Assembly (NCBI GenBank): GCA_004322205.1
Contig: SCSN01000004.1
Location: 1-36,939 of the forward strand
Direction of reading: 5' to 3'
Length of the DNA: 36,939 bases
Origin: Patescibacteria group bacterium
GTDB lineage: Bacteria > Patescibacteriota > Minisyncoccia > Phycocordibacterales > Zambryskibacteraceae
Below the pieces are notes generated by a model. That model saw only the letters and a program-made list of their open reading frames with translations. It was not told where the DNA came from and did not search any database. Below are positions 18,702-36,939 of this stretch, one piece after another. Positions within the stretch are counted from its first letter, which is position 1; each line of letters begins with the position of its first letter. A program made the position numbers and the translations under genes.

Positions 18702-19053
18702 CAGCCGCGTAAAGACTAAGCTTTTGCCTCGTCCACTTGGCCACGTAAAGCTAAGGCCGCGTGGCCGCGTGGACTTGCTGCAAGCAAGTCTTTACGCGGC
18801 TGTTCCTCCTGAACAAAATCCGAACTTTTTACCAAACGAATCCTGACTAAGGAAGCCAGCCCGCCGCCGCTCGCTACCACTCGCCACCCAGCAAAAAAGT
18901 TTTCTCTGCATTTCTGATTTTGCGCGCGCCGGATTTCTTCTTCCCCGCCTGCGCCGAGGCTTCAGCGGGCAGGTAAAAGGAAAAGAAAACTTTTTTGCTG
19001 GGTTCTGCTCTCTCCGGCGAAGCCGCGAGGCAACCTTTCAATCTTATCCTTGT
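18702..19053. mobile_element. Minimal integrative-element remnant at the tRNA-Gln 3' end with palindromes and tail copy 3 (18797-18850, plus strand)
   Basis: 16-bp IR 18702-18717/18787-18802; core GGCTG shared with the tRNA 3' end; CCCAGCAAAAAAGTTTT/AAAACTTTTTTGCTGGG IR; REP-like unit 18945-18973. Confidence 0.55.
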
Positions 19054-32676: not shown

Positions 32677-33540
32677 ATGACAAATCTGAAGCAAAAAACA
32701 CGGAAGATCAGGGTCAAAGGGAGATGGGTTACCATAGTCGCAATGCTCTCTCTCCTTCCCCTCTCTTTCGCGCTGGCAGAGCTTCCCAGCAATGAAACCC
32801 CATACCCGGAAAAACTCTACGCCCAATGTTTTGACAGCAAAGACAATGACGGCGACGGAAAAATCGACCTCAAGGACGTTGACTGTCCTAAATGCGCTGA
32901 CGGTATTGATAACGACGGCGACGGCTTTATAGATCAAGCTGATTCTGATTGCCCGAAGAAAATCGGGTTCTGGAGGCAAGCGGCGGCGGCAGTTCTTGGC
33001 GTTGATACGACAGACGAAGGCACAGCTGGTGCGGGATTTCCTTCAGGCGGCACTGTTGCCGCCGGAGGCACGATTGCGGCAGGGGGTGCACCTTGCAGCG
33101 GACGTGTTGTTGTTTTCCAACGGAGAGTGAGGACTGCGACGAGCTTTTATCTTCAGCCGGTTTATACTACCTGCATTAATCAAGTTGACGCCGGAGGAGA
33201 AATTGGAACAATAGACGACCCTCGCGACGTACCTGTGGGGGGCGAAATTTCTGCAGGCGGCAGGACCGCGAGCAGTGAACGTATCCAAGCTGGCGGAACA
33301 GTCCCCGCTGGTGGAACAATTAGTAGCGGCGGAACAATTACTACGGGTGGTACTCTTCCTGGAGGTGGCACCGTCACTTCAGGGGGCAAGATTATCGCTG
33401 GAGGTGCGGTGGAAGTTAGTAGCTCGATTAATGTTGGCGGCAAGATTCAGGGTGGCGGAATAGTTGACGCCGCTAGCTCCGTCATTTCCGGAGGAAGAGT
33501 CTCTGCAGGCGGTTCTATCCCTGCAGGCGGAACTATATAA
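32677..33540 (+). CDS. Exported protein with two C-D--DNDGDG--D--D-DC Ca-binding-like repeats and a Gly-rich hexapeptide solenoid
   Basis: Signal/TM N-terminus; repeats visible in the translation; start 32677 preferred over 32653. Confidence 0.8.
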   Translation: MTNLKQKTRKIRVKGRWVTIVAMLSLLPLSFALAELPSNETPYPEKLYAQCFDSKDNDGDGKIDLKDVDCPKCADGIDNDGDGFIDQADSDCPKKIGFWRQAAAAVLGVDTTDEGTAGAGFPSGGTVAAGGTIAAGGAPCSGRVVVFQRRVRTATSFYLQPVYTTCINQVDAGGEIGTIDDPRDVPVGGEISAGGRTASSERIQAGGTVPAGGTISSGGTITTGGTLPGGGTVTSGGKIIAGGAVEVSSSINVGGKIQGGGIVDAASSVISGGRVSAGGSIPAGGTI

Positions 33541-33547
33541 TTGGGGA

Positions 33548-34465
33548 ATGAAAAAGAGACTCCTTGTTGTCATCGGGCCGACGACATCGGGCAAGAGCGC
33601 TTTAGCGGTGGCGCTTGCCAAAAAATTTTCCGGCGAAGTTGTATCTGCCGATTCACGCCAAGTCTACAAGGATCTTGATATCGGCACGGGAAAAATCACG
33701 AGAAAAGAAAAGGCAGGGATTCCTCATCACTGCCTCGACATTGCTAGTTCCAAGCGCCAGATTACCGTCGAAGAATACCGCAAGCATGCCGAAAAAGCGC
33801 TCGAAGAAATCTGGGCGCGCGGAAAACTCCCCATCATAATCGGCGGAACCGGATTTTACATCCAGGCTCTGGTTGATAAAGTAGTTTTTCCTCATGTCCC
33901 GCCGAATAAGATACTGCGCAAGAGATTAGAGAAGAAATCTGCGCAGGAACTTTTTTTAATACTCAAAAAACTGGATCCTGCCCGCGCCCGAACAATTGAA
34001 CCAAAGAATCCGCGCAGACTTATCCGCGCCATAGAAATCGCCAAGACATTAGGCAAAGTGCCGCAGTTAAAAAGACGAAAGAAAGAACTTGATGCACTTT
34101 TCATGGGTATAAAAATTTCCCCGCAGATTCTCAAGAAAAATATTGAAAGACGGGCAATAGAAAGACTGCGCCAAGGAATGATTGCCGAAGCACAAAGACT
34201 CCGAGCGAGAGGGCTTTCACTCAAGCGAATGCGCGAACTCGGTTTGGAATACCGATATTTGGCTGACTTCCTGCAGGACAAAATTTCAAAAAAAGAGCTC
34301 CGCCAGAAAATTATCAGCGGCAATTGGCAATATGCCAAACGCCAATTGCGCTGGTTCAACCGCGATAAAAGAATTAAATGGTTTGATATCTCCAAAAAAC
34401 AAGAAAGGAAGAAACTCGAGAGGTCGGTGAGAAAGTTTCTTGATATTGACACAATTCAGAAATAG
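33548..34465 (+). CDS. miaA: tRNA dimethylallyltransferase
   Basis: GPTTSGKS, SADSRQVY, DIGTGK, PHH, GGTGFY, YAKRQ--WF. Confidence 0.97.
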   Translation: MKKRLLVVIGPTTSGKSALAVALAKKFSGEVVSADSRQVYKDLDIGTGKITRKEKAGIPHHCLDIASSKRQITVEEYRKHAEKALEEIWARGKLPIIIGGTGFYIQALVDKVVFPHVPPNKILRKRLEKKSAQELFLILKKLDPARARTIEPKNPRRLIRAIEIAKTLGKVPQLKRRKKELDALFMGIKISPQILKKNIERRAIERLRQGMIAEAQRLRARGLSLKRMRELGLEYRYLADFLQDKISKKELRQKIISGNWQYAKRQLRWFNRDKRIKWFDISKKQERKKLERSVRKFLDIDTIQK

Positions 34466-34524
34466 AGGTATTCTAAAAAGAGAAGGCTCACCAGACAACT
34501 TGGACAACTTGAAAGGGGCACAGT

Positions 34525-34887
34525 ATGTCGAAGAGAGACGAGTTCTTTTGGGGTTCACTCTTGCTGTCCGCTGTCCTTTGGTTTATCACCTTGCTAAGCA
34601 CCAAATGGCCAGCCAATCTTGTTGCAACCTCGTTCCTCGGCATGCTAGCAACGATAAACACGGCGATATTCGCTTTCCTGCTCGGAGAAAGGTTGCTTCG
34701 CGGGAAGCCGAGGCTACGAAAGATTGCGGCAGGAGGTGCTTGGCTCGCAAGCGTTTTCGTTACGCTCGTCGGCTGGTTCAGAGGTAATACACTGGAGGTA
34801 GGTGTAGCTCTGATCTTCATGATCTGCCTTGTGGCTTTCGGCGCCGGACTTTTCGATTCAGAGAGTGAAAAAGCACCTGTGGTATAA
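34525..34887 (+). CDS. Small 4-TM membrane protein
   Basis: TTGACA(34446)-17-TATTCT promoter, SD AAGGGG, terminator 34901-34950. Confidence 0.8.
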   Translation: MSKRDEFFWGSLLLSAVLWFITLLSTKWPANLVATSFLGMLATINTAIFAFLLGERLLRGKPRLRKIAAGGAWLASVFVTLVGWFRGNTLEVGVALIFMICLVAFGAGLFDSESEKAPVV

Positions 34888-34986
34888 TTCCAGCATCCCC
34901 GCCCCGTGAGATAGCGCGCACGCGCGCCAACTCACGGGGCGGTTTTTCTTTGAGAAAAAATTTGATACGATTGTGTGCAAATATAA

Positions 34987-35022
34987 AGGTGGTTGGTTGA
35001 GTGGCATAACTTCGGCCTCCAA
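34987..35022 (+). pseudogene. tRNA-Trp(CCA) 5' half (layer A)
   Basis: AGGTGGT-TG-GTTG-AGTGGCA-TAAC-T-TCGGC-CTCCAA; no matching intact 3' half found. Confidence 0.6.
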
Positions 35023-35046
35023 CCCAGCACATTATTAGAGGTCAAT

Positions 35047-35219
35047 GGGAGCTTAGTTAAGTGGTATAACTGCTGTCTCTCCGCCTGCGTATGGGTCTAT
35101 AGTTCAACGGTAGAACGATGGTCTCCAAAACCATTAATCCAGGTTCAAGTCCTGGTGGACCCGCAAATTTCGGCGGGCAGGCAAAACAGCGGTCGGAGGT
35201 TCGATTCCTCCAGCTCCCG
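35047..35219 (+). tRNA. Split tRNA, probably Trp(CCA), with a 102-nt anticodon insertion (layer B; exons 35047-35079 and 35182-35219)
   Basis: GGGAGCT/AGCTCCC-G, GTTA/TAAC, GCTGT/ACAGC and GGAGG-TTCGATT-CCTCC all pair perfectly. Confidence 0.85.
35093..35163 (+). tRNA. tRNA-Trp(CCA), intact, nested in layer B (layer C)
   Basis: GGGTCTA/TGGACCC-G, GTTC/GAAC, ATGGT-CTCCAAA-ACCAT, CCAGG-TTCAAGT-CCTGG. Confidence 0.95.
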
Positions 35220-35288
35220 CTAGAATGTGCTGGGCGAGTCCTGGTGGGCCCGCAAATATTAAACCCCGCCGTATGGCTGGGTTCAATG

Positions 35289-35447
35289 TTATTTCTTTGC
35301 CTCCTTGTGAAGAGTGCGCTTTCTGCAAAATCTGCAGTACTTCTTGAGCTCGATTTTTCGCTCGACTTTCTTCTTATTTTTGCTTGTCCAATAGTTAATC
35401 CGCTTACAGTTCGAGCATACAAGTTTTATAAGATTTTCTTGAGACAT
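35289..35447 (-). CDS. rpmG: 50S ribosomal protein L33 (zinc-binding form)
   Basis: Manual translation MSQENLIKLVCSNCKRINYWTSKNKKKVERKIELKKYCRFCRKRTLHKEAKK; below the ORF-track length cutoff. Confidence 0.96.
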   Translation of the reverse strand: MSQENLIKLVCSNCKRINYWTSKNKKKVERKIELKKYCRFCRKRTLHKEAKK

Positions 35448-35526
35448 AACAGGACGACAATAACAGAAAAAACAAAAATAGCTAAGCGCTCTTTTCTACA
35501 AAAGAGTTGTTGCTGAAAATCACTGG

Positions 35527-35781
35527 TTACTCCGCGGCATAAATCGCCGCCCCCTCTTTTGCCTGCTGCGAGAGTTTGACGGCTACCTCCTGCCCTTTCT
35601 TGCCCGACTCAATGGCTTGGTGGTTGAGCTGCATGGAGTCCACAGAATCTTCAAACTCCGTTTCTCCACGCCTCACCTTAATCTTGTCTCCTACCTTGAG
35701 AGCGCCTGCAAGTTTAATAACCGCAACGCCGATTTTGTCGTACCAGTGCACAACTTCACCAATTGGCTTTGCTTCTGCCAT
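35527..35781 (-). CDS. Small EF-Tu domain II-like beta-barrel protein
   Basis: IGEVVHWYDKIGVAVIKL...LKVGDKI...V-SMQ...GQEVAVK. Confidence 0.8.
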   Translation of the reverse strand: MAEAKPIGEVVHWYDKIGVAVIKLAGALKVGDKIKVRRGETEFEDSVDSMQLNHQAIESGKKGQEVAVKLSQQAKEGAAIYAAE

Positions 35782-35937
35782 ATAACCATATATTAGTACG
35801 GAGCGCTTTAGATGTCCAATGTGCAGAATACTTGAATTAGCTCAAACCGGCCGTCAGCTTTTTGACAATTTAAGGCTTTCTTCTGGCGGGCTAGGTTCGA
35901 GCGCACAAAGCTCTCACAATTAGCTCTCTATAAAACA

Positions 35938-35978
35938 GAAAGCCGCCCCGAAGTCGAGACGACTTTCAGGGGCGGCTG
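35938..35978 (-). terminator. Intrinsic terminator
   Basis: AGCCGCCCC...GGGGCGGCT-TT hairpin just after the frame-corrected stop at 35983. Confidence 0.7.
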
Positions 35979-35982
35979 GAGC

Positions 35983-36586
35983 TCACGCGACTACCTTGTT
36001 CAGACGCAGCTTGCGTGAGATCAGAAGTACCATCAACACCTGGAGGAAGAGGAACCAGACGGGGGTGAGGGCCGCCGCGATGTTCCAAGTCGGAATCGCC
36101 AGCACTCCGAAGACCCCCCCCCGCCAAGAACAGAAGCCAAGGCAGGAGCGGCTCGCGTGCGGGGTTCTCCCAAACGTTCACCACCATGGGGACAGACCCG
36201 ATAGTGATGGCGACGAAACTCAAAATGATGGCGACGAGACTCAAAATGATGGCGATGTTCGGGTCCCCCGAAACCGCCCAGAGCCCGATCGCAACGATCA
36301 CGACGGTGAGACAGATGAAGTCGAGACGAGTCCACCCAACTGCTGCGCCCTTGTAGACACTGGCTCCAACAAGGACCGCGACGCCGACCGTGTACGCCAC
36401 CATCTGCCATGCCATCTCGCTAGCAGCGATCATACCCGCCAGAATCGCGGCGTTCATGAGCAACCAAGAGATCCACGTTGAGACTGTGAGCTGGGCATTG
36501 CTCGTGAGCACTGACTTGGCGTAAGGCACGTAGGCCGCCGCCGAGAACAGAAACGCGAGAACAGCAAAGACGGAAATGAGCTGCAT
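35983..36586 (-). pseudogene. Multi-pass membrane protein frameshifted in a G9 tract
   Basis: SD AGAGGAGG; with G8 at 36114-36122 the ORF continues as hydrophobic VFGVLAIPTWNIAAALTPVWFLFLQVLMVLLI to TGA at 35983. Confidence 0.8.
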
Positions 36587-36738
36587 TTGGCCCTCCTCTA
36601 AGGGTCTAAAGTTGACAGTGAACTCTATTTAACATTATACACCCAGTATCAATACTTGTCAAACCATCAAGGGAGCCAATGGCAAAAGCGACAAAAACCC
36701 AAGCTATCGAGACTATTGAAAGCGGGTAAATTTGCCTG

Positions 36739-36939
36739 CCCGACGCATAGCTCTAAGACTCGTTATGCGTCGGGAGGGATTCGAATCTTACAGATTCTGT
36801 ACACCTTTCGCATTCCGCTTCGCGGAATATGCTCAAGGTCTTCTCATCCCTCACGCGAGCGAAGCGGTTCGCTCGCTCCGACGCATTTTTCACTTCGTTT
36901 CAAAATGCAGTATTCTTGAATTAGTCCGAACCCATTTCG
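36739..36939. mobile_element. Palindromic element with a tRNA-3'-end mimic followed by tail copy 4 (36903-36938, KCSILELVRTHF, cut by the window edge)
   Basis: Minus strand TTCGAATCCCTCCCGACGCA; ATGCGTCGG/CCGACGCAT inverted repeats; nested hairpins. Confidence 0.6.

What the first reader, a model, noticed from the sequence alone, without database searches (positions are those of the whole stretch)
35047..35219. tRNA inside a tRNA: intact tRNA-Trp nested in the anticodon insertion of a second complete tRNA
Seen: 35047-35079 plus 35182-35219 join into a perfectly paired cloverleaf with loop CT-CCA-AA and discriminator G73 (Trp identity). The 102-nt insert 35080-35181 contains a second, sequence-divergent, complete tRNA-Trp(CCA) at 35093-35163. 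An alternative junction one base earlier gives anticodon GCA (Cys), but bacterial tRNA-Cys uses U73. The outer tRNA shows no decay in any stem. Inference: either a recent disruption rescued by an incoming tRNA, or a precursor processed into two tRNAs. The insert is too short and lacks group I intron cores, so any splicing would be by a mechanism I cannot identify.
Basis: partly seen in the sequence, partly recalled or inferred. Interest (0 to 1): 0.92.

Follow-up and report, generated by a model that had tools for sequence, protein, structure and literature searches.

The report
Broken tRNA-Trp gene holding its replacement
A complete tryptophan tRNA gene sits inside the anticodon loop of a second, still perfect-looking tryptophan tRNA gene; this is most likely a recent DNA insertion that killed and replaced the old gene, one step in a repeated turnover of this gene in tiny-genome bacteria.

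Summary
Window 35047-35079 plus 35182-35219 are the two halves of a tRNA-Trp(CCA) gene ('B'). They are split between anticodon positions 34 and 35 by 102 nt that carry a different, complete tRNA-Trp(CCA) ('C', 35093-35163). Eight related genomes hold the same two halves uninterrupted. One intact relative matches the joined gene at 66 of 71 positions.

- a decayed third 5' half (34988-35022);
- an 11-bp inverted repeat round B;
- a 3' fragment of a fourth tRNA-Trp (35237-35257);
- arms round C that copy a hairpin repeat found elsewhere in this genome.

I found no splicing endonuclease, no RtcB ligase and no intron core. Of 67 relatives' tRNA-Trp loci, 7 carry a 5' fragment just upstream of a complete gene, most ending in or just past the anticodon loop. 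None keeps both halves.

Best reading (about 0.8): serial insertion of replacement tRNA-Trp cassettes at the DNA level. B is a fresh pseudogene and C is the working gene. How the cassette got in is not resolved. Reads could not be checked. Interest is moderate.

The parts
34961..34971 (+). Promoter-like motif TTTGATACGAT, 16 nt before the oldest fragment. It is probably the only promoter for the whole nest.
   Evidence: The same or a near-identical motif (TTTGATACGAT, TTTGATAGGAT, TCTGCTAGGAT and the like) lies about 10-17 nt upstream of tRNA-Trp in L012, L008, L018, L020, L017, L009, L004, L014, L123 and L125 (read by eye). The simple sigma-70 scan found no + strand site here, so this part is inferred.
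34988..35022 (+). 'A5': a decayed 5' half of an older tRNA-Trp gene, running through the anticodon loop. It is a pseudogene fragment.
   Evidence: 31 of 35 identical to positions 2-36 of the intact tRNA-Trp of G011 (L020). The mismatches include the conserved A14 and an anticodon-stem base. No matching 3' half was found in the genome.
35023..35033 (+). Left arm of an 11-bp perfect inverted repeat enclosing the outer tRNA gene.
   Evidence: It pairs with 35224-35234. In 66 related tRNA-Trp loci the longest perfect leader-trailer repeat is 8 nt; none reaches 9. It occurs at one other place in the genome, C5:16702, without its partner.
35047..35079 (+). 'B5': the 5' half of the outer tRNA-Trp(CCA) gene, positions 1-34, ending at C34.
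   Evidence: 100% identical over 33 nt to G315. Adjacent to the 3' half in 8 relatives.
35080..35181 (+). The 102-nt insert in the anticodon loop of B: hairpin arm, 3-nt leader, tRNA C, trailer, hairpin arm.
   Evidence: No intron family matches.
35081..35089 (+). Left arm (CCGCCTGCG) of a GC-rich hairpin repeat.
   Evidence: Identical to the left arm of hairpin copies at C14:117734-117762, at window 18945-18973 and (8 nt) at C15:10283.
35093..35163 (+). 'C': the complete inner tRNA-Trp(CCA), and the only intact tRNA-Trp in the genome. It is presumably the working gene.
   Evidence: ARAGORN. Rfam 70.7 bits. 91-92% identical to tRNA-Trp of G279, G100 and G124.
35170..35181 (+). Right arm (TCGGCGGGCAGG) of the same hairpin repeat, flush with the 3' junction.
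   Evidence: Identical to the C14 copy and one mismatch from the copy at window 18945-18973. It pairs with 35081-35088 in the predicted fold.
35182..35219 (+). 'B3': the 3' half of the outer tRNA-Trp gene, from C35 to discriminator G73.
   Evidence: 87-95% identical to the 3' halves of intact relatives, where it abuts the 5' half.
35224..35234 (+). Right arm of the 11-bp inverted repeat.
35237..35257 (+). 'C-prime 3': a 3' fragment (T-loop to 3' end plus 5 nt of trailer) of a fourth tRNA-Trp gene. It is a direct repeat of 35148-35168.
   Evidence: 20 of 21 identical to the inner tRNA's 3' end and trailer. The same kind of 3' repeat lies 97-241 nt downstream of tRNA-Trp in 8 of 67 relatives.
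33464..34465 (+). miaA (tRNA isopentenyltransferase), the conserved upstream neighbour.
   Evidence: Pfam IPPT, E 3.3e-63.
35289..35447 (-). rpmG (ribosomal protein L33), the conserved converging downstream neighbour.
   Evidence: Pfam Ribosomal_L33, E 8.4e-19.

Best explanation
The region is a stack of tRNA-Trp genes that replaced one another at the DNA level.

Proposed order of events (inferred):
1. A tRNA-Trp gene stood behind the promoter between miaA and rpmG.
2. A piece of DNA bounded by inverted repeats and carrying another tRNA-Trp gene landed in or next to its anticodon loop. This destroyed the resident gene and supplied a working one.
3. This happened at least twice. First gene A was broken by the unit that carries B. 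Then B was broken between positions 34 and 35 by a 102-nt unit in which gene C sits in the loop of a copy of a genomic GC-rich hairpin repeat.

Only C is intact and serves translation. B is a very young pseudogene whose halves have not yet mutated. A5' and the 3' fragment at 35237-35257 are older debris.

The whole nest is probably transcribed from the one promoter upstream of A5'. C would then be cut out by the ordinary RNase P and 3'-end pathway.

Shown: the anatomy, the homology of each piece, the absence of splicing machinery, and the recurrence of 5' fragments in relatives.

Inferred: the order of events, transcription, and the insertion mechanism. Candidates are a break at the anticodon hairpin repaired with foreign DNA, a mobile hairpin-bounded cassette, or a nuclease such as the GIY-YIG genes seen at this site in two relatives.
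For: Anatomy and homology:
- The joined halves form a perfect tRNA-Trp, and the halves are contiguous in 8 relatives.
- The joined gene is 66 of 71 identical to an intact gene of G315 and has no private substitution at any of 71 positions.

The inner gene is the only working copy:
- It is the only intact tRNA-Trp among 47 tRNA genes.

Both sequence types are ordinary alleles of this gene:
- Among 11 fetched loci of the same family, 7 carry type B and 4 carry type C.
- Both types are seen between miaA and rpmG.

Graded decay:
- A5' has 4 mismatches in 35, including A14.
- B has none.

Recurrence in relatives:
- 7 of 67 relatives (G013, G037, G017, G002, G011, G385, G246) have a tRNA-Trp 5' fragment 15-300 nt upstream of a complete tRNA-Trp. 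Five of the 7 end in or just past the anticodon loop; in G002 and G385 the matched pieces stop at about position 20 or are interrupted there.
- The replacement runs in different directions: C replaced by B in G011, B by B in G013, B by another type in G037.

The inserted unit:
- The arms round C are copies of a repeated hairpin of this genome.
- A related hairpin sits in the anticodon loop of the pseudo-fragment in G011.
- Another palindromic repeat sits there in G017 and G246.

No splicing machinery:
- PF01974 absent, with 4 archaeal controls positive.
- PF01139 absent, with 10 controls positive.
- No intron families.
- The genome is rated 100% complete.

Other tRNA debris in the same genome: Ile, Gly, Asp and Tyr fragments.
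Against: - No read-level check of the assembly was possible.
- No orthologous nest exists in any other genome, so neither selection on the outer halves nor the age of the insertion can be measured. The pattern scan of 185,579 species representatives gave 2 hits, neither nested.
- A pristine outer gene with all stems intact is also what a functional gene would look like.
- No mobility gene lies in or beside the nest.
- The small GIY-YIG genes (3 in this genome, 0-10 in the relatives searched) touch tRNA-Trp only in G017 and G246.
- No Y1 transposase was found. The one tyrosine recombinase is on another contig.
- No target-site duplication flanks the 102-nt insert.
- The 11-bp repeat round B has no explained origin.
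- No donor was found in viral contigs. Phage genomes gave only generic tRNA similarity of 76-81%.
Confidence: 0.8

Rival explanations
1. The 102 nt are an intron-like insert removed at the RNA level, so one precursor yields two tRNA-Trp molecules: the inner one by RNase P and 3' processing, the outer one by cutting and ligation of its halves.
For: The outer halves are flawless. The predicted fold brings the two junctions together at the base of a hairpin, and the whole region folds better than all 100 shuffles, z = -4.28. A central 4-bp helix of bulge-helix-bulge type can be drawn between 35074-35077 and 35176-35179 (my reading).
Against: - No tRNA splicing endonuclease and no RtcB in a genome rated 100% complete.
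- No group I or II intron match, and 102 nt is too short for either.
- The flanking helices of a bulge-helix-bulge are 0 and 1 bp, and forming the central helix would open 3 of the 5 anticodon-stem pairs.
- The junction lies at 34/35, inside the anticodon.
- Excision of the inner tRNA alone would leave 13 + 18 extra nt in the loop.
- A second tRNA-Trp(CCA) gives no decoding gain.
- No other genome keeps such an arrangement.
Confidence: 0.04
2. The nest is an assembly artefact: reads from strains with B-type and C-type alleles were stitched together.
For: The genome is a multi-contig assembly (18 contigs). The nest lies about 1.7 kb from a contig end. Both allele types circulate in the family. 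Reads could not be checked.
Against: - The junctions do not lie in sequence shared by the two alleles. The longest shared stretch is about 11 nt of the anticodon loop, and the insert starts and ends with hairpin-repeat arms that belong to neither tRNA.
- A switch between allele paths would give a chimera, not a nest with both halves kept in order.
- Similar fragment-plus-gene layouts occur in 7 independent assemblies.
Confidence: 0.05
3. The insertion happened at the DNA level, but the outer halves and hairpin arms are now kept by selection as a long processing or stabilising helix round the inner pre-tRNA. On this reading the outer gene is not simply decaying.
For: The nest forms a continuous set of helices round the inner tRNA. 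Some other tRNA genes of this genome have leader-trailer complementarity: Gln-CTG -19.1 kcal/mol (z -3.1), Leu-CAA -18.3 (z -3.3), Glu-TTC (z -3.1).
Against: In 66 relatives' tRNA-Trp loci, leader-trailer repeats do not exceed 8 nt and look like chance. Relatives with 5' fragments have lost the 3' halves, so the scaffold is not needed. No comparative data exist for this nest.
Confidence: 0.07

Closest known systems
tRNA gene fragments left beside tRNA genes by integrating genetic elements (attL/attR duplications)
   Same: Partial tRNA copies lie next to a complete gene. One is a 21-nt direct repeat of the 3' end (35148-35168 and 35237-35257). The incoming DNA restores a working tRNA. PMC9897764 (abstract read) says partial, non-canonical tRNA genes in prokaryotes arise from integration of genetic elements. 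That integrase subfamilies prefer sublocations, including the anticodon loop, is recalled from Williams 2002 and was not read here.
   Different: No integrase and no element body: the insert is 102 nt. The incoming DNA carries a whole tRNA rather than the missing half, so both halves of the old gene remain, nested round it. 5' fragments lie upstream of the new gene, rather than 3' fragments at the far end of an island.
Phage T4 SegB, a free-standing GIY-YIG homing endonuclease in a tRNA gene cluster
   Same: A GIY-YIG gene is tied to tRNA genes and to the preferential inheritance of a tRNA region (PMC2330249; search listing and start of abstract only). In G017 and G246, a GIY-YIG ORF (Pfam E 2.7e-15 and 5.4e-13) sits between a tRNA-Trp 5' fragment and a complete tRNA-Trp and overlaps its 5' end.
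   Different: The window's nest has no such ORF. The 3 GIY-YIG genes of this genome are elsewhere. These proteins are only about 88 aa, a bare catalytic domain. No cleavage data exist.
Archaeal and eukaryal tRNA introns (bulge-helix-bulge), including the Haloferax tRNA-Trp intron that holds a C/D box RNA (recalled)
   Same: An insert of about 100 nt in the anticodon region of a tRNA-Trp gene carries another small RNA gene.
   Different: The host is a bacterium. I found no endonuclease, no RtcB and no proper bulge-helix-bulge motif. The position is 34/35, not 37/38.
Bacterial group I introns in tRNA anticodon loops (recalled: tRNA-Leu, tRNA-fMet and others in cyanobacteria and proteobacteria)
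   Same: A bacterial tRNA gene is interrupted in the anticodon loop.
   Different: No group I core was found by Rfam at E up to 1. The insert is too short, and it is itself a tRNA.
Short palindromic repeats that invade genes (REP elements; Rickettsia palindromic elements; recalled)
   Same: Multi-copy GC-rich hairpins lie at scattered sites: at least 10 of the CCTGCC...GGCAGG family in this genome. A 24-nt palindrome is present 5 times in G246, once in frame in an EF-G-like ORF, with 3-4 bp flanking repeats in four of the five copies. Copies sit in the anticodon loops of tRNA-Trp pseudo-fragments.
   Different: These are much shorter than Rickettsia palindromic elements. No REP-associated (Y1) transposase was found. 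Here a copy carries a whole tRNA gene in its loop.

Membership tests
Intron-containing tRNA of the archaeal/eukaryal type | Bulge-helix-bulge motif at the two splice sites (two 3-nt bulges round a 4-bp helix, with flanking helices). The definition is recalled. | tested here: not met
   By inspection, 4 bp are possible (35074-35077 with 35176-35179, one a G-U pair). The flanking helices are 0 bp on the exon side (35073/35183 is C/A) and 1 bp on the intron side. The helix also competes with the anticodon stem.
Intron-containing tRNA of the archaeal/eukaryal type | tRNA splicing endonuclease (EndA) in the genome | tested here: not met
   PF01974: 0 matches at E up to 0.1 in a genome rated 100% complete. 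The 4 archaeal controls were positive.
Intron-containing tRNA of the archaeal/eukaryal type | RtcB-type RNA ligase in the genome | tested here: not met
   PF01139: 0 matches. 10 of 14 control genomes were positive.
Bacterial tRNA group I (or II) intron | Catalytic intron core recognisable by a covariance model | tested here: not met
   Rfam at gathering threshold on the whole window, and at E up to 1 on L001, which covers window 33460-36800. Only tRNA matched.
Spliced or joined outer tRNA | A joined RNA product exists | not testable with these tools
Integrative element in a tRNA gene (att duplication) | Direct repeat of part of the tRNA gene bounding the inserted DNA | tested here: met
   35148-35168 and 35237-35257 are 20 of 21 identical. 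The repeat bounds only 68 nt (35169-35236), which include the 3' half of B.
Integrative element in a tRNA gene (att duplication) | Integrase gene within or beside the inserted DNA | tested here: not met
   The only PF00589 match in the genome is at C5:96885-97403, on another contig. No ORF of that kind lies at 34900-35300.
Free-standing GIY-YIG homing endonuclease cassette at a tRNA gene | GIY-YIG ORF adjacent to the interrupted tRNA gene | tested here: not met
   The window's nest has none. The feature is met in two relatives, G017 (L018:1244-1510) and G246 (L035:456-722).
Free-standing GIY-YIG homing endonuclease cassette at a tRNA gene | The enzyme cleaves the uninterrupted tRNA gene | not testable with these tools
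   This needs an in vitro cleavage assay.
REP/MITE-like palindromic repeat | Several copies of the same imperfect hairpin at unrelated sites | tested here: met
   The arms CCGCCTGCG and TCGGCGGGCAGG recur at C14:117734-117762 (identical), at window 18945-18973 (1 mismatch) and at C15:10283 (8 + 9 nt). The wider family has at least 10 sites against about 0.6 expected, by my estimate. Caveat: the C14 and window 18945 copies lie within one 150-nt two-copy repeat.
REP/MITE-like palindromic repeat | Target-site duplication or a cognate transposase | tested here: inconclusive
   No duplication flanks the 102-nt insert. The other palindrome family, in G246 and G017, shows 3-4 bp flanking repeats. No Y1 transposase was found.

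The most novel reading that the evidence does not exclude
These small-genome bacteria may harbour a class of minute, enzyme-less mobile cassettes. Each would be a complete tRNA gene held in the loop of an inverted-repeat hairpin. The cassette would insert into the anticodon hairpin of the resident gene for the same tRNA. By destroying the host's only copy while supplying its own, it could not be lost again. This would be a 'kill and replace' addiction that turns an essential tRNA gene into selfish DNA. The nest in this window, with three generations, would be the first case caught with both halves of the victim still intact. The short palindromic repeats in the anticodon loops of other pseudo-fragments would be cassettes that have lost their tRNA.
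Probability: 0.2. Interest if true: 0.75.

Novelty: new variant of a known kind. Interest (0 to 1): 0.5.

Why it matters
tRNA genes are classic landing sites for mobile DNA, but the incoming element normally repairs the gene with a matching half. Here the incoming DNA brings a whole gene of the same identity and leaves the old one split but otherwise untouched. This gives a snapshot of an essential single-copy gene being replaced.

Three further observations point the same way:
- 5' fragments lie beside complete tRNA-Trp genes in 7 of 67 related genomes, most of them ending in or just past the anticodon loop.
- Two sequence types alternate at one syntenic site within one family.
- Hairpin repeats sit in the anticodon loops of the dead copies.

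Together they suggest that tRNA-Trp in this order of very small genomes turns over by a targeted route that has not been described. My searches found no report of it.

The case also has a practical side. Annotation pipelines will meet such nests and fragments and should not call them intron-bearing or extra tRNAs.

Tried and rejected
Cys reading of the outer gene. Rejected: relatives read CCA at the uninterrupted junction, and a tRNA-Cys(GCA) exists on C16.

Splicing. No PF01974, PF01139 or intron families. The bulge-helix-bulge test by hand was not met.

A phage donor.
- Two viral contigs pattern scans, for the C-type and B-type anticodon regions, gave 0 hits.
- blastn against phage genomes gave only 76-81% tRNA-level matches.

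Other nests.
- The genome contigs pattern for a B-type 3' half preceded by a non-C base gave 2 hits: a coding-sequence chance match, and an uninterrupted tRNA with anticodon UCA. The pattern is strict, with a fixed T-loop, so variants would be missed.
- The metagenome scan with MiaA gave 80 loci. The closest has only 57% identity, and only 7 hold a tRNA-Trp, none of them nested.

Integrase, transposase or GIY-YIG at the nest. None was found. The GIY-YIG lead rests on 2 genomes only. In the 41-genome search, 26 genomes have such genes, but only G017 has one touching tRNA-Trp.

Leader-trailer pairing as a general feature of tRNA-Trp genes. Not seen in 66 relatives.

The 150-nt repeat next to tRNA-Gln as a high-copy MITE. 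It has only 2 full copies and one short partial match.

A genome-wide list of hairpins. It was dominated by terminator-like stems and gave nothing.

Known RNA families for the elements flanking tRNA-Trp in relatives. No credible match.

ARAGORN notes. With the intron option it did not find the outer gene on the unspliced sequence. Without the -w option it reported nothing in that 260-nt piece, which I did not explain.

Tools and data limits.
- Supplements of papers were not consulted.
- One genome flagged unpublished (G271) enters only the tally and the 401 genomes sampled.
Full report
WHAT IS THERE

The window is a whole contig (C10) of a 667-kb, 18-contig genome rated 100% complete. The small size and gene set, and relatives of 0.4-1.4 Mb, suggest the ultra-small bacteria often called CPR or Patescibacteria. 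No tool named the organism.

The finding lies between miaA (33464-34465; Pfam IPPT, E 3.3e-63) and a converging rpmG (35289-35447, minus strand; Ribosomal_L33, E 8.4e-19).

ARAGORN finds one tRNA-Trp(CCA) at 35093-35164, and Rfam's tRNA model scores it 70.7 bits. It is the only intact tRNA-Trp among the genome's 47 tRNA genes.

THE OUTER GENE IS REAL

Slices 35047-35079 and 35182-35219, joined in a script, give an ARAGORN tRNA-Trp(CCA) with all stems paired.

In a search of 41 genomes of the same family and order (40 relatives and the window's own), 8 relatives hold the two halves side by side as one gene: G002, G003, G007, G010, G015, G017, G022 and G029. The break is therefore exactly 35079|35182, between anticodon positions 34 and 35.

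An intact tRNA-Trp of G315 is identical to the joined sequence over its first 46 positions, anticodon arm included, and at 66 of 71 overall. Against 39 intact genes of this type ('B'), the joined gene has no private base at any of 71 positions.

The Cys reading is unnecessary, because a tRNA-Cys(GCA) stands on C16.

THE NEST HAS MORE LAYERS

Reading 5' to 3':

- 34961-34971: a promoter-like motif, also found about 10-17 nt before tRNA-Trp in ten relatives (by eye). The simple promoter scan did not call it.
- 34988-35022: a decayed 5' half, 'A5'. It is 31 of 35 identical to positions 2-36 of the gene of G011, with A14 and an anticodon-stem base changed.
- 35023-35033: the left arm of an 11-bp perfect inverted repeat.
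- 13 nt of spacer.
- 35047-35079: B5'.
- 35080: one T.
- 35081-35089: a hairpin arm.
- TAT, then gene C, then CAAATT.
- 35170-35181: the partner hairpin arm.
- 35182-35219: B3'.
- CTAG, then the right arm of the 11-bp repeat (35224-35234).
- 35237-35257: a copy (20 of 21) of the inner tRNA's last 16 nt plus 5 nt of trailer, from yet another tRNA-Trp gene.

So at least four generations of the gene have left pieces here, and only C is whole. The region folds into a set of nested helices, z = -4.28 against 100 shuffles.

THE ARMS ROUND THE INNER GENE ARE A GENOMIC REPEAT

CCGCCTGCG and TCGGCGGGCAGG are also the arms of short hairpins in three other places:

- C14:117734-117762, identical;
- window 18945-18973, next to tRNA-Gln, one mismatch;
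- C15:10283, 8 + 9 nt.

The copies share the same imperfection, a bulged A and a G-T pair. They are therefore copies of one element rather than independent hairpins. Two of them lie within one 150-nt two-copy repeat.

A wider family (CCTGCC...GGCAGG) has at least 10 sites in the genome. I estimate about 0.6 expected by chance.

The trailer of the closest C-type gene, in G124 (92% identical over 73 nt), contains a related stretch.

RELATIVES SHOW A RECURRENT PROCESS

I looked at the tRNA-Trp loci of 67 related genomes.

The two sequence types, B and C, are both ordinary alleles. Of 11 loci from the window's own family, 7 are B and 4 are C. Both types occur between miaA and rpmG.

In 7 of the 67 genomes, a 5' fragment of a tRNA-Trp gene lies 15-300 nt upstream of a complete one: G013, G037, G017, G002, G011, G385 and G246. 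In five of them the fragment ends at positions 33, 34, about 37, or 42 (two cases). In G002 and G385 the matched pieces stop at about position 20 or are interrupted there by a hairpin.

The pairs differ in direction:
- a C fragment before a B gene in G011;
- a B fragment before a different B gene in G013;
- a B fragment before a third type in G037.

In four of the seven (G011, G017, G246, G385), the dead fragment carries a GC-rich hairpin. In three of these it lies in the anticodon loop.
- In G011 it belongs to the same family as in the window.
- In G017 and G246 it is a 24-nt palindrome. It occurs 5 times in G246, once in frame in an EF-G-like ORF, with 3-4 bp flanking repeats in four of the five copies.

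In G017 and G246, a GIY-YIG ORF of 88 aa (Pfam E 2.7e-15 and 5.4e-13) fills the gap between the fragment and the complete gene and overlaps the gene's 5' end.

Eight of the 67 also have a 15-22-nt direct repeat of the tRNA's 3' end 97-241 nt downstream.

None of the 67 keeps both halves of a broken gene round a complete one. A pattern scan of one genome for each of 185,579 species, looking for a broken B-type 3' half, found no further case: 2 irrelevant hits.

The window's own genome has similar debris for tRNA-Ile, Gly, Asp and Tyr.

RNA-LEVEL READINGS

The genome has no tRNA splicing endonuclease and no RtcB, and the controls behaved as expected. Rfam finds no intron.

A bulge-helix-bulge can be drawn only as a bare 4-bp helix without flanking helices, and only at the cost of the anticodon stem. 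This is my inspection, and the motif definition is recalled.

Cutting out the inner tRNA by RNase P and 3' processing would leave 31 foreign nt in the outer anticodon loop. A second tRNA-Trp(CCA) would add nothing to decoding.

RNA reads could not be consulted.

MOST LIKELY HISTORY AND MECHANISM

I read the nest as two successive DNA insertions, each of a hairpin-bounded unit carrying a tRNA-Trp gene, into the anticodon loop of the gene then in service. The first broke A, which has since decayed. The second broke B, which has not yet changed, so it is recent.

C now depends on the old promoter and is presumably released from a long precursor by the normal enzymes.

How the unit gets in is open. 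I see three candidates:

(a) Breakage of the anticodon hairpin, followed by repair with DNA from a related strain.
(b) A passive mobile cassette whose ends are the hairpin-repeat arms.
(c) A nuclease such as the multi-copy small GIY-YIG genes. There are 3 here and 0-10 in the relatives searched, but they touch tRNA-Trp in only two genomes.

Against all three: there is no mobility gene at the nest and no target duplication, and no donor was found.

COMPARISON WITH WHAT IS KNOWN

The nearest known thing is the tRNA fragment left by an integrating element (PMC9897764, abstract read). The nest differs from that case in three ways: a whole gene arrives, both halves of the old gene stay, and no integrase or element body is present.

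Phage T4 SegB is a GIY-YIG endonuclease tied to inheritance of a tRNA region (PMC2330249; listing and start of abstract only). It resembles the two relatives with an ORF, not the window.

Archaeal tRNA-Trp introns that carry a small RNA, bacterial group I introns in anticodon loops, and REP or Rickettsia palindromic elements are recalled parallels. The membership tests for the first two fail, and for the third they are only partly met.

My searches for a nested tRNA gene, or for such elements in these bacteria, found nothing. The library covers open-access papers only.

VERDICT

- The nest is best filed as a new variant of insertional tRNA-gene disruption with replacement.
- Interest is moderate in itself. 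It would be higher if the hairpin-bounded tRNA cassette proves to be a mobile element with a preference for the anticodon loop.
- The main weakness is that neither reads nor close relatives were available. The assembly and the age of the event therefore rest on indirect arguments.

Noticed in passing
L018:1165-1572 (G017) and L035:396-794, minus strand (G246): A conserved cassette with this order: tRNA-Trp 5' fragment (to about position 42) with a 24-nt palindrome in its anticodon loop, then an 88-aa GIY-YIG ORF, then a complete tRNA-Trp whose first bases overlap the ORF's end. In G017 the same palindrome recurs 12 nt after the complete gene.
   Followed up: partly
L163-L166 and L035 (G246); L018 (G017): A 24-nt perfect palindrome with core GTCGCTCGCGAGCGAC is present 5 times in G246 and twice in G017. 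Four of the five G246 copies and one G017 copy have 3-4 bp flanking repeats (TCCA, TCAA, TGGA, TCA). One copy lies in frame inside an EF-G-like ORF (L164). It looks like a very small mobile palindromic element.
   Followed up: partly
L028, L031, L022, L128, L156, L124, L149, L159; own genome C1:12019-12202: Inserts of about 100-240 nt lie between a tRNA's 3' end and a direct repeat of that end. Several hold an inverted copy of the T-arm/acceptor 3' strand, interrupted by a hairpin with a CTGC tetraloop. No Rfam family matches. They may be a family of miniature elements that target tRNA 3' ends.
   Followed up: partly
window 36765-36785 (-) and 36856-36877: A 21-nt fragment is identical to the 3' end of the genome's tRNA-Tyr (C16:1648-1733). 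A hairpin at the contig end also occurs at C16:36-57. C10 and C16 are probably neighbours, and the assembly seems to have broken at tRNA debris.
   Followed up: no
own genome C7:8952-8980 and C7:9060-9134; C6:11022-11047: A 5' fragment of tRNA-Ile(TAT), running through the anticodon loop, lies about 80 nt upstream of the complete gene. A tRNA-Gly pseudo-gene has a hairpin replacing its middle. This is the same kind of debris as at tRNA-Trp.
   Followed up: partly
own genome C7:9060-9134: ARAGORN calls a tRNA-Ile with anticodon TAT, which would read AUA directly. As far as I recall this is uncommon in bacteria. Whether the genome lacks TilS was not checked.
   Followed up: no
window 18860-19010 and C14:117697-117847: A 150-nt imperfect palindromic repeat (two copies, 91% identical) lies next to tRNA-Gln(TTG). 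Its centre is the same hairpin whose arms flank the inner tRNA-Trp. Its ends begin CCCAGCA, like the 11-bp repeat round the outer tRNA.
   Followed up: partly
L122:1890-1962 (-), genome contigs record titled as a Sulfuritalea MAG: An uninterrupted tRNA has an anticodon arm and T-arm like type-B tRNA-Trp but anticodon UCA. ARAGORN calls it SeC. It could be a UGA-reading Trp-like or suppressor tRNA, perhaps on foreign DNA.
   Followed up: no
own genome C5:101385 to the contig end: A tRNA-Pro(TGG)-like gene is cut off by the end of contig C5. This explains why ARAGORN's list lacks that anticodon.
   Followed up: no
L124:190-392 (G100), L021 (G046), L126 (G237): Units of about 73 nt lie upstream of C-type tRNA-Trp, and two stand in tandem in G100. 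Each starts with a copy of the tRNA's first 9 nt folded back on itself (GGGCCTATA...TAGGCCC), followed by a conserved GCACTCGGA motif.
   Followed up: no
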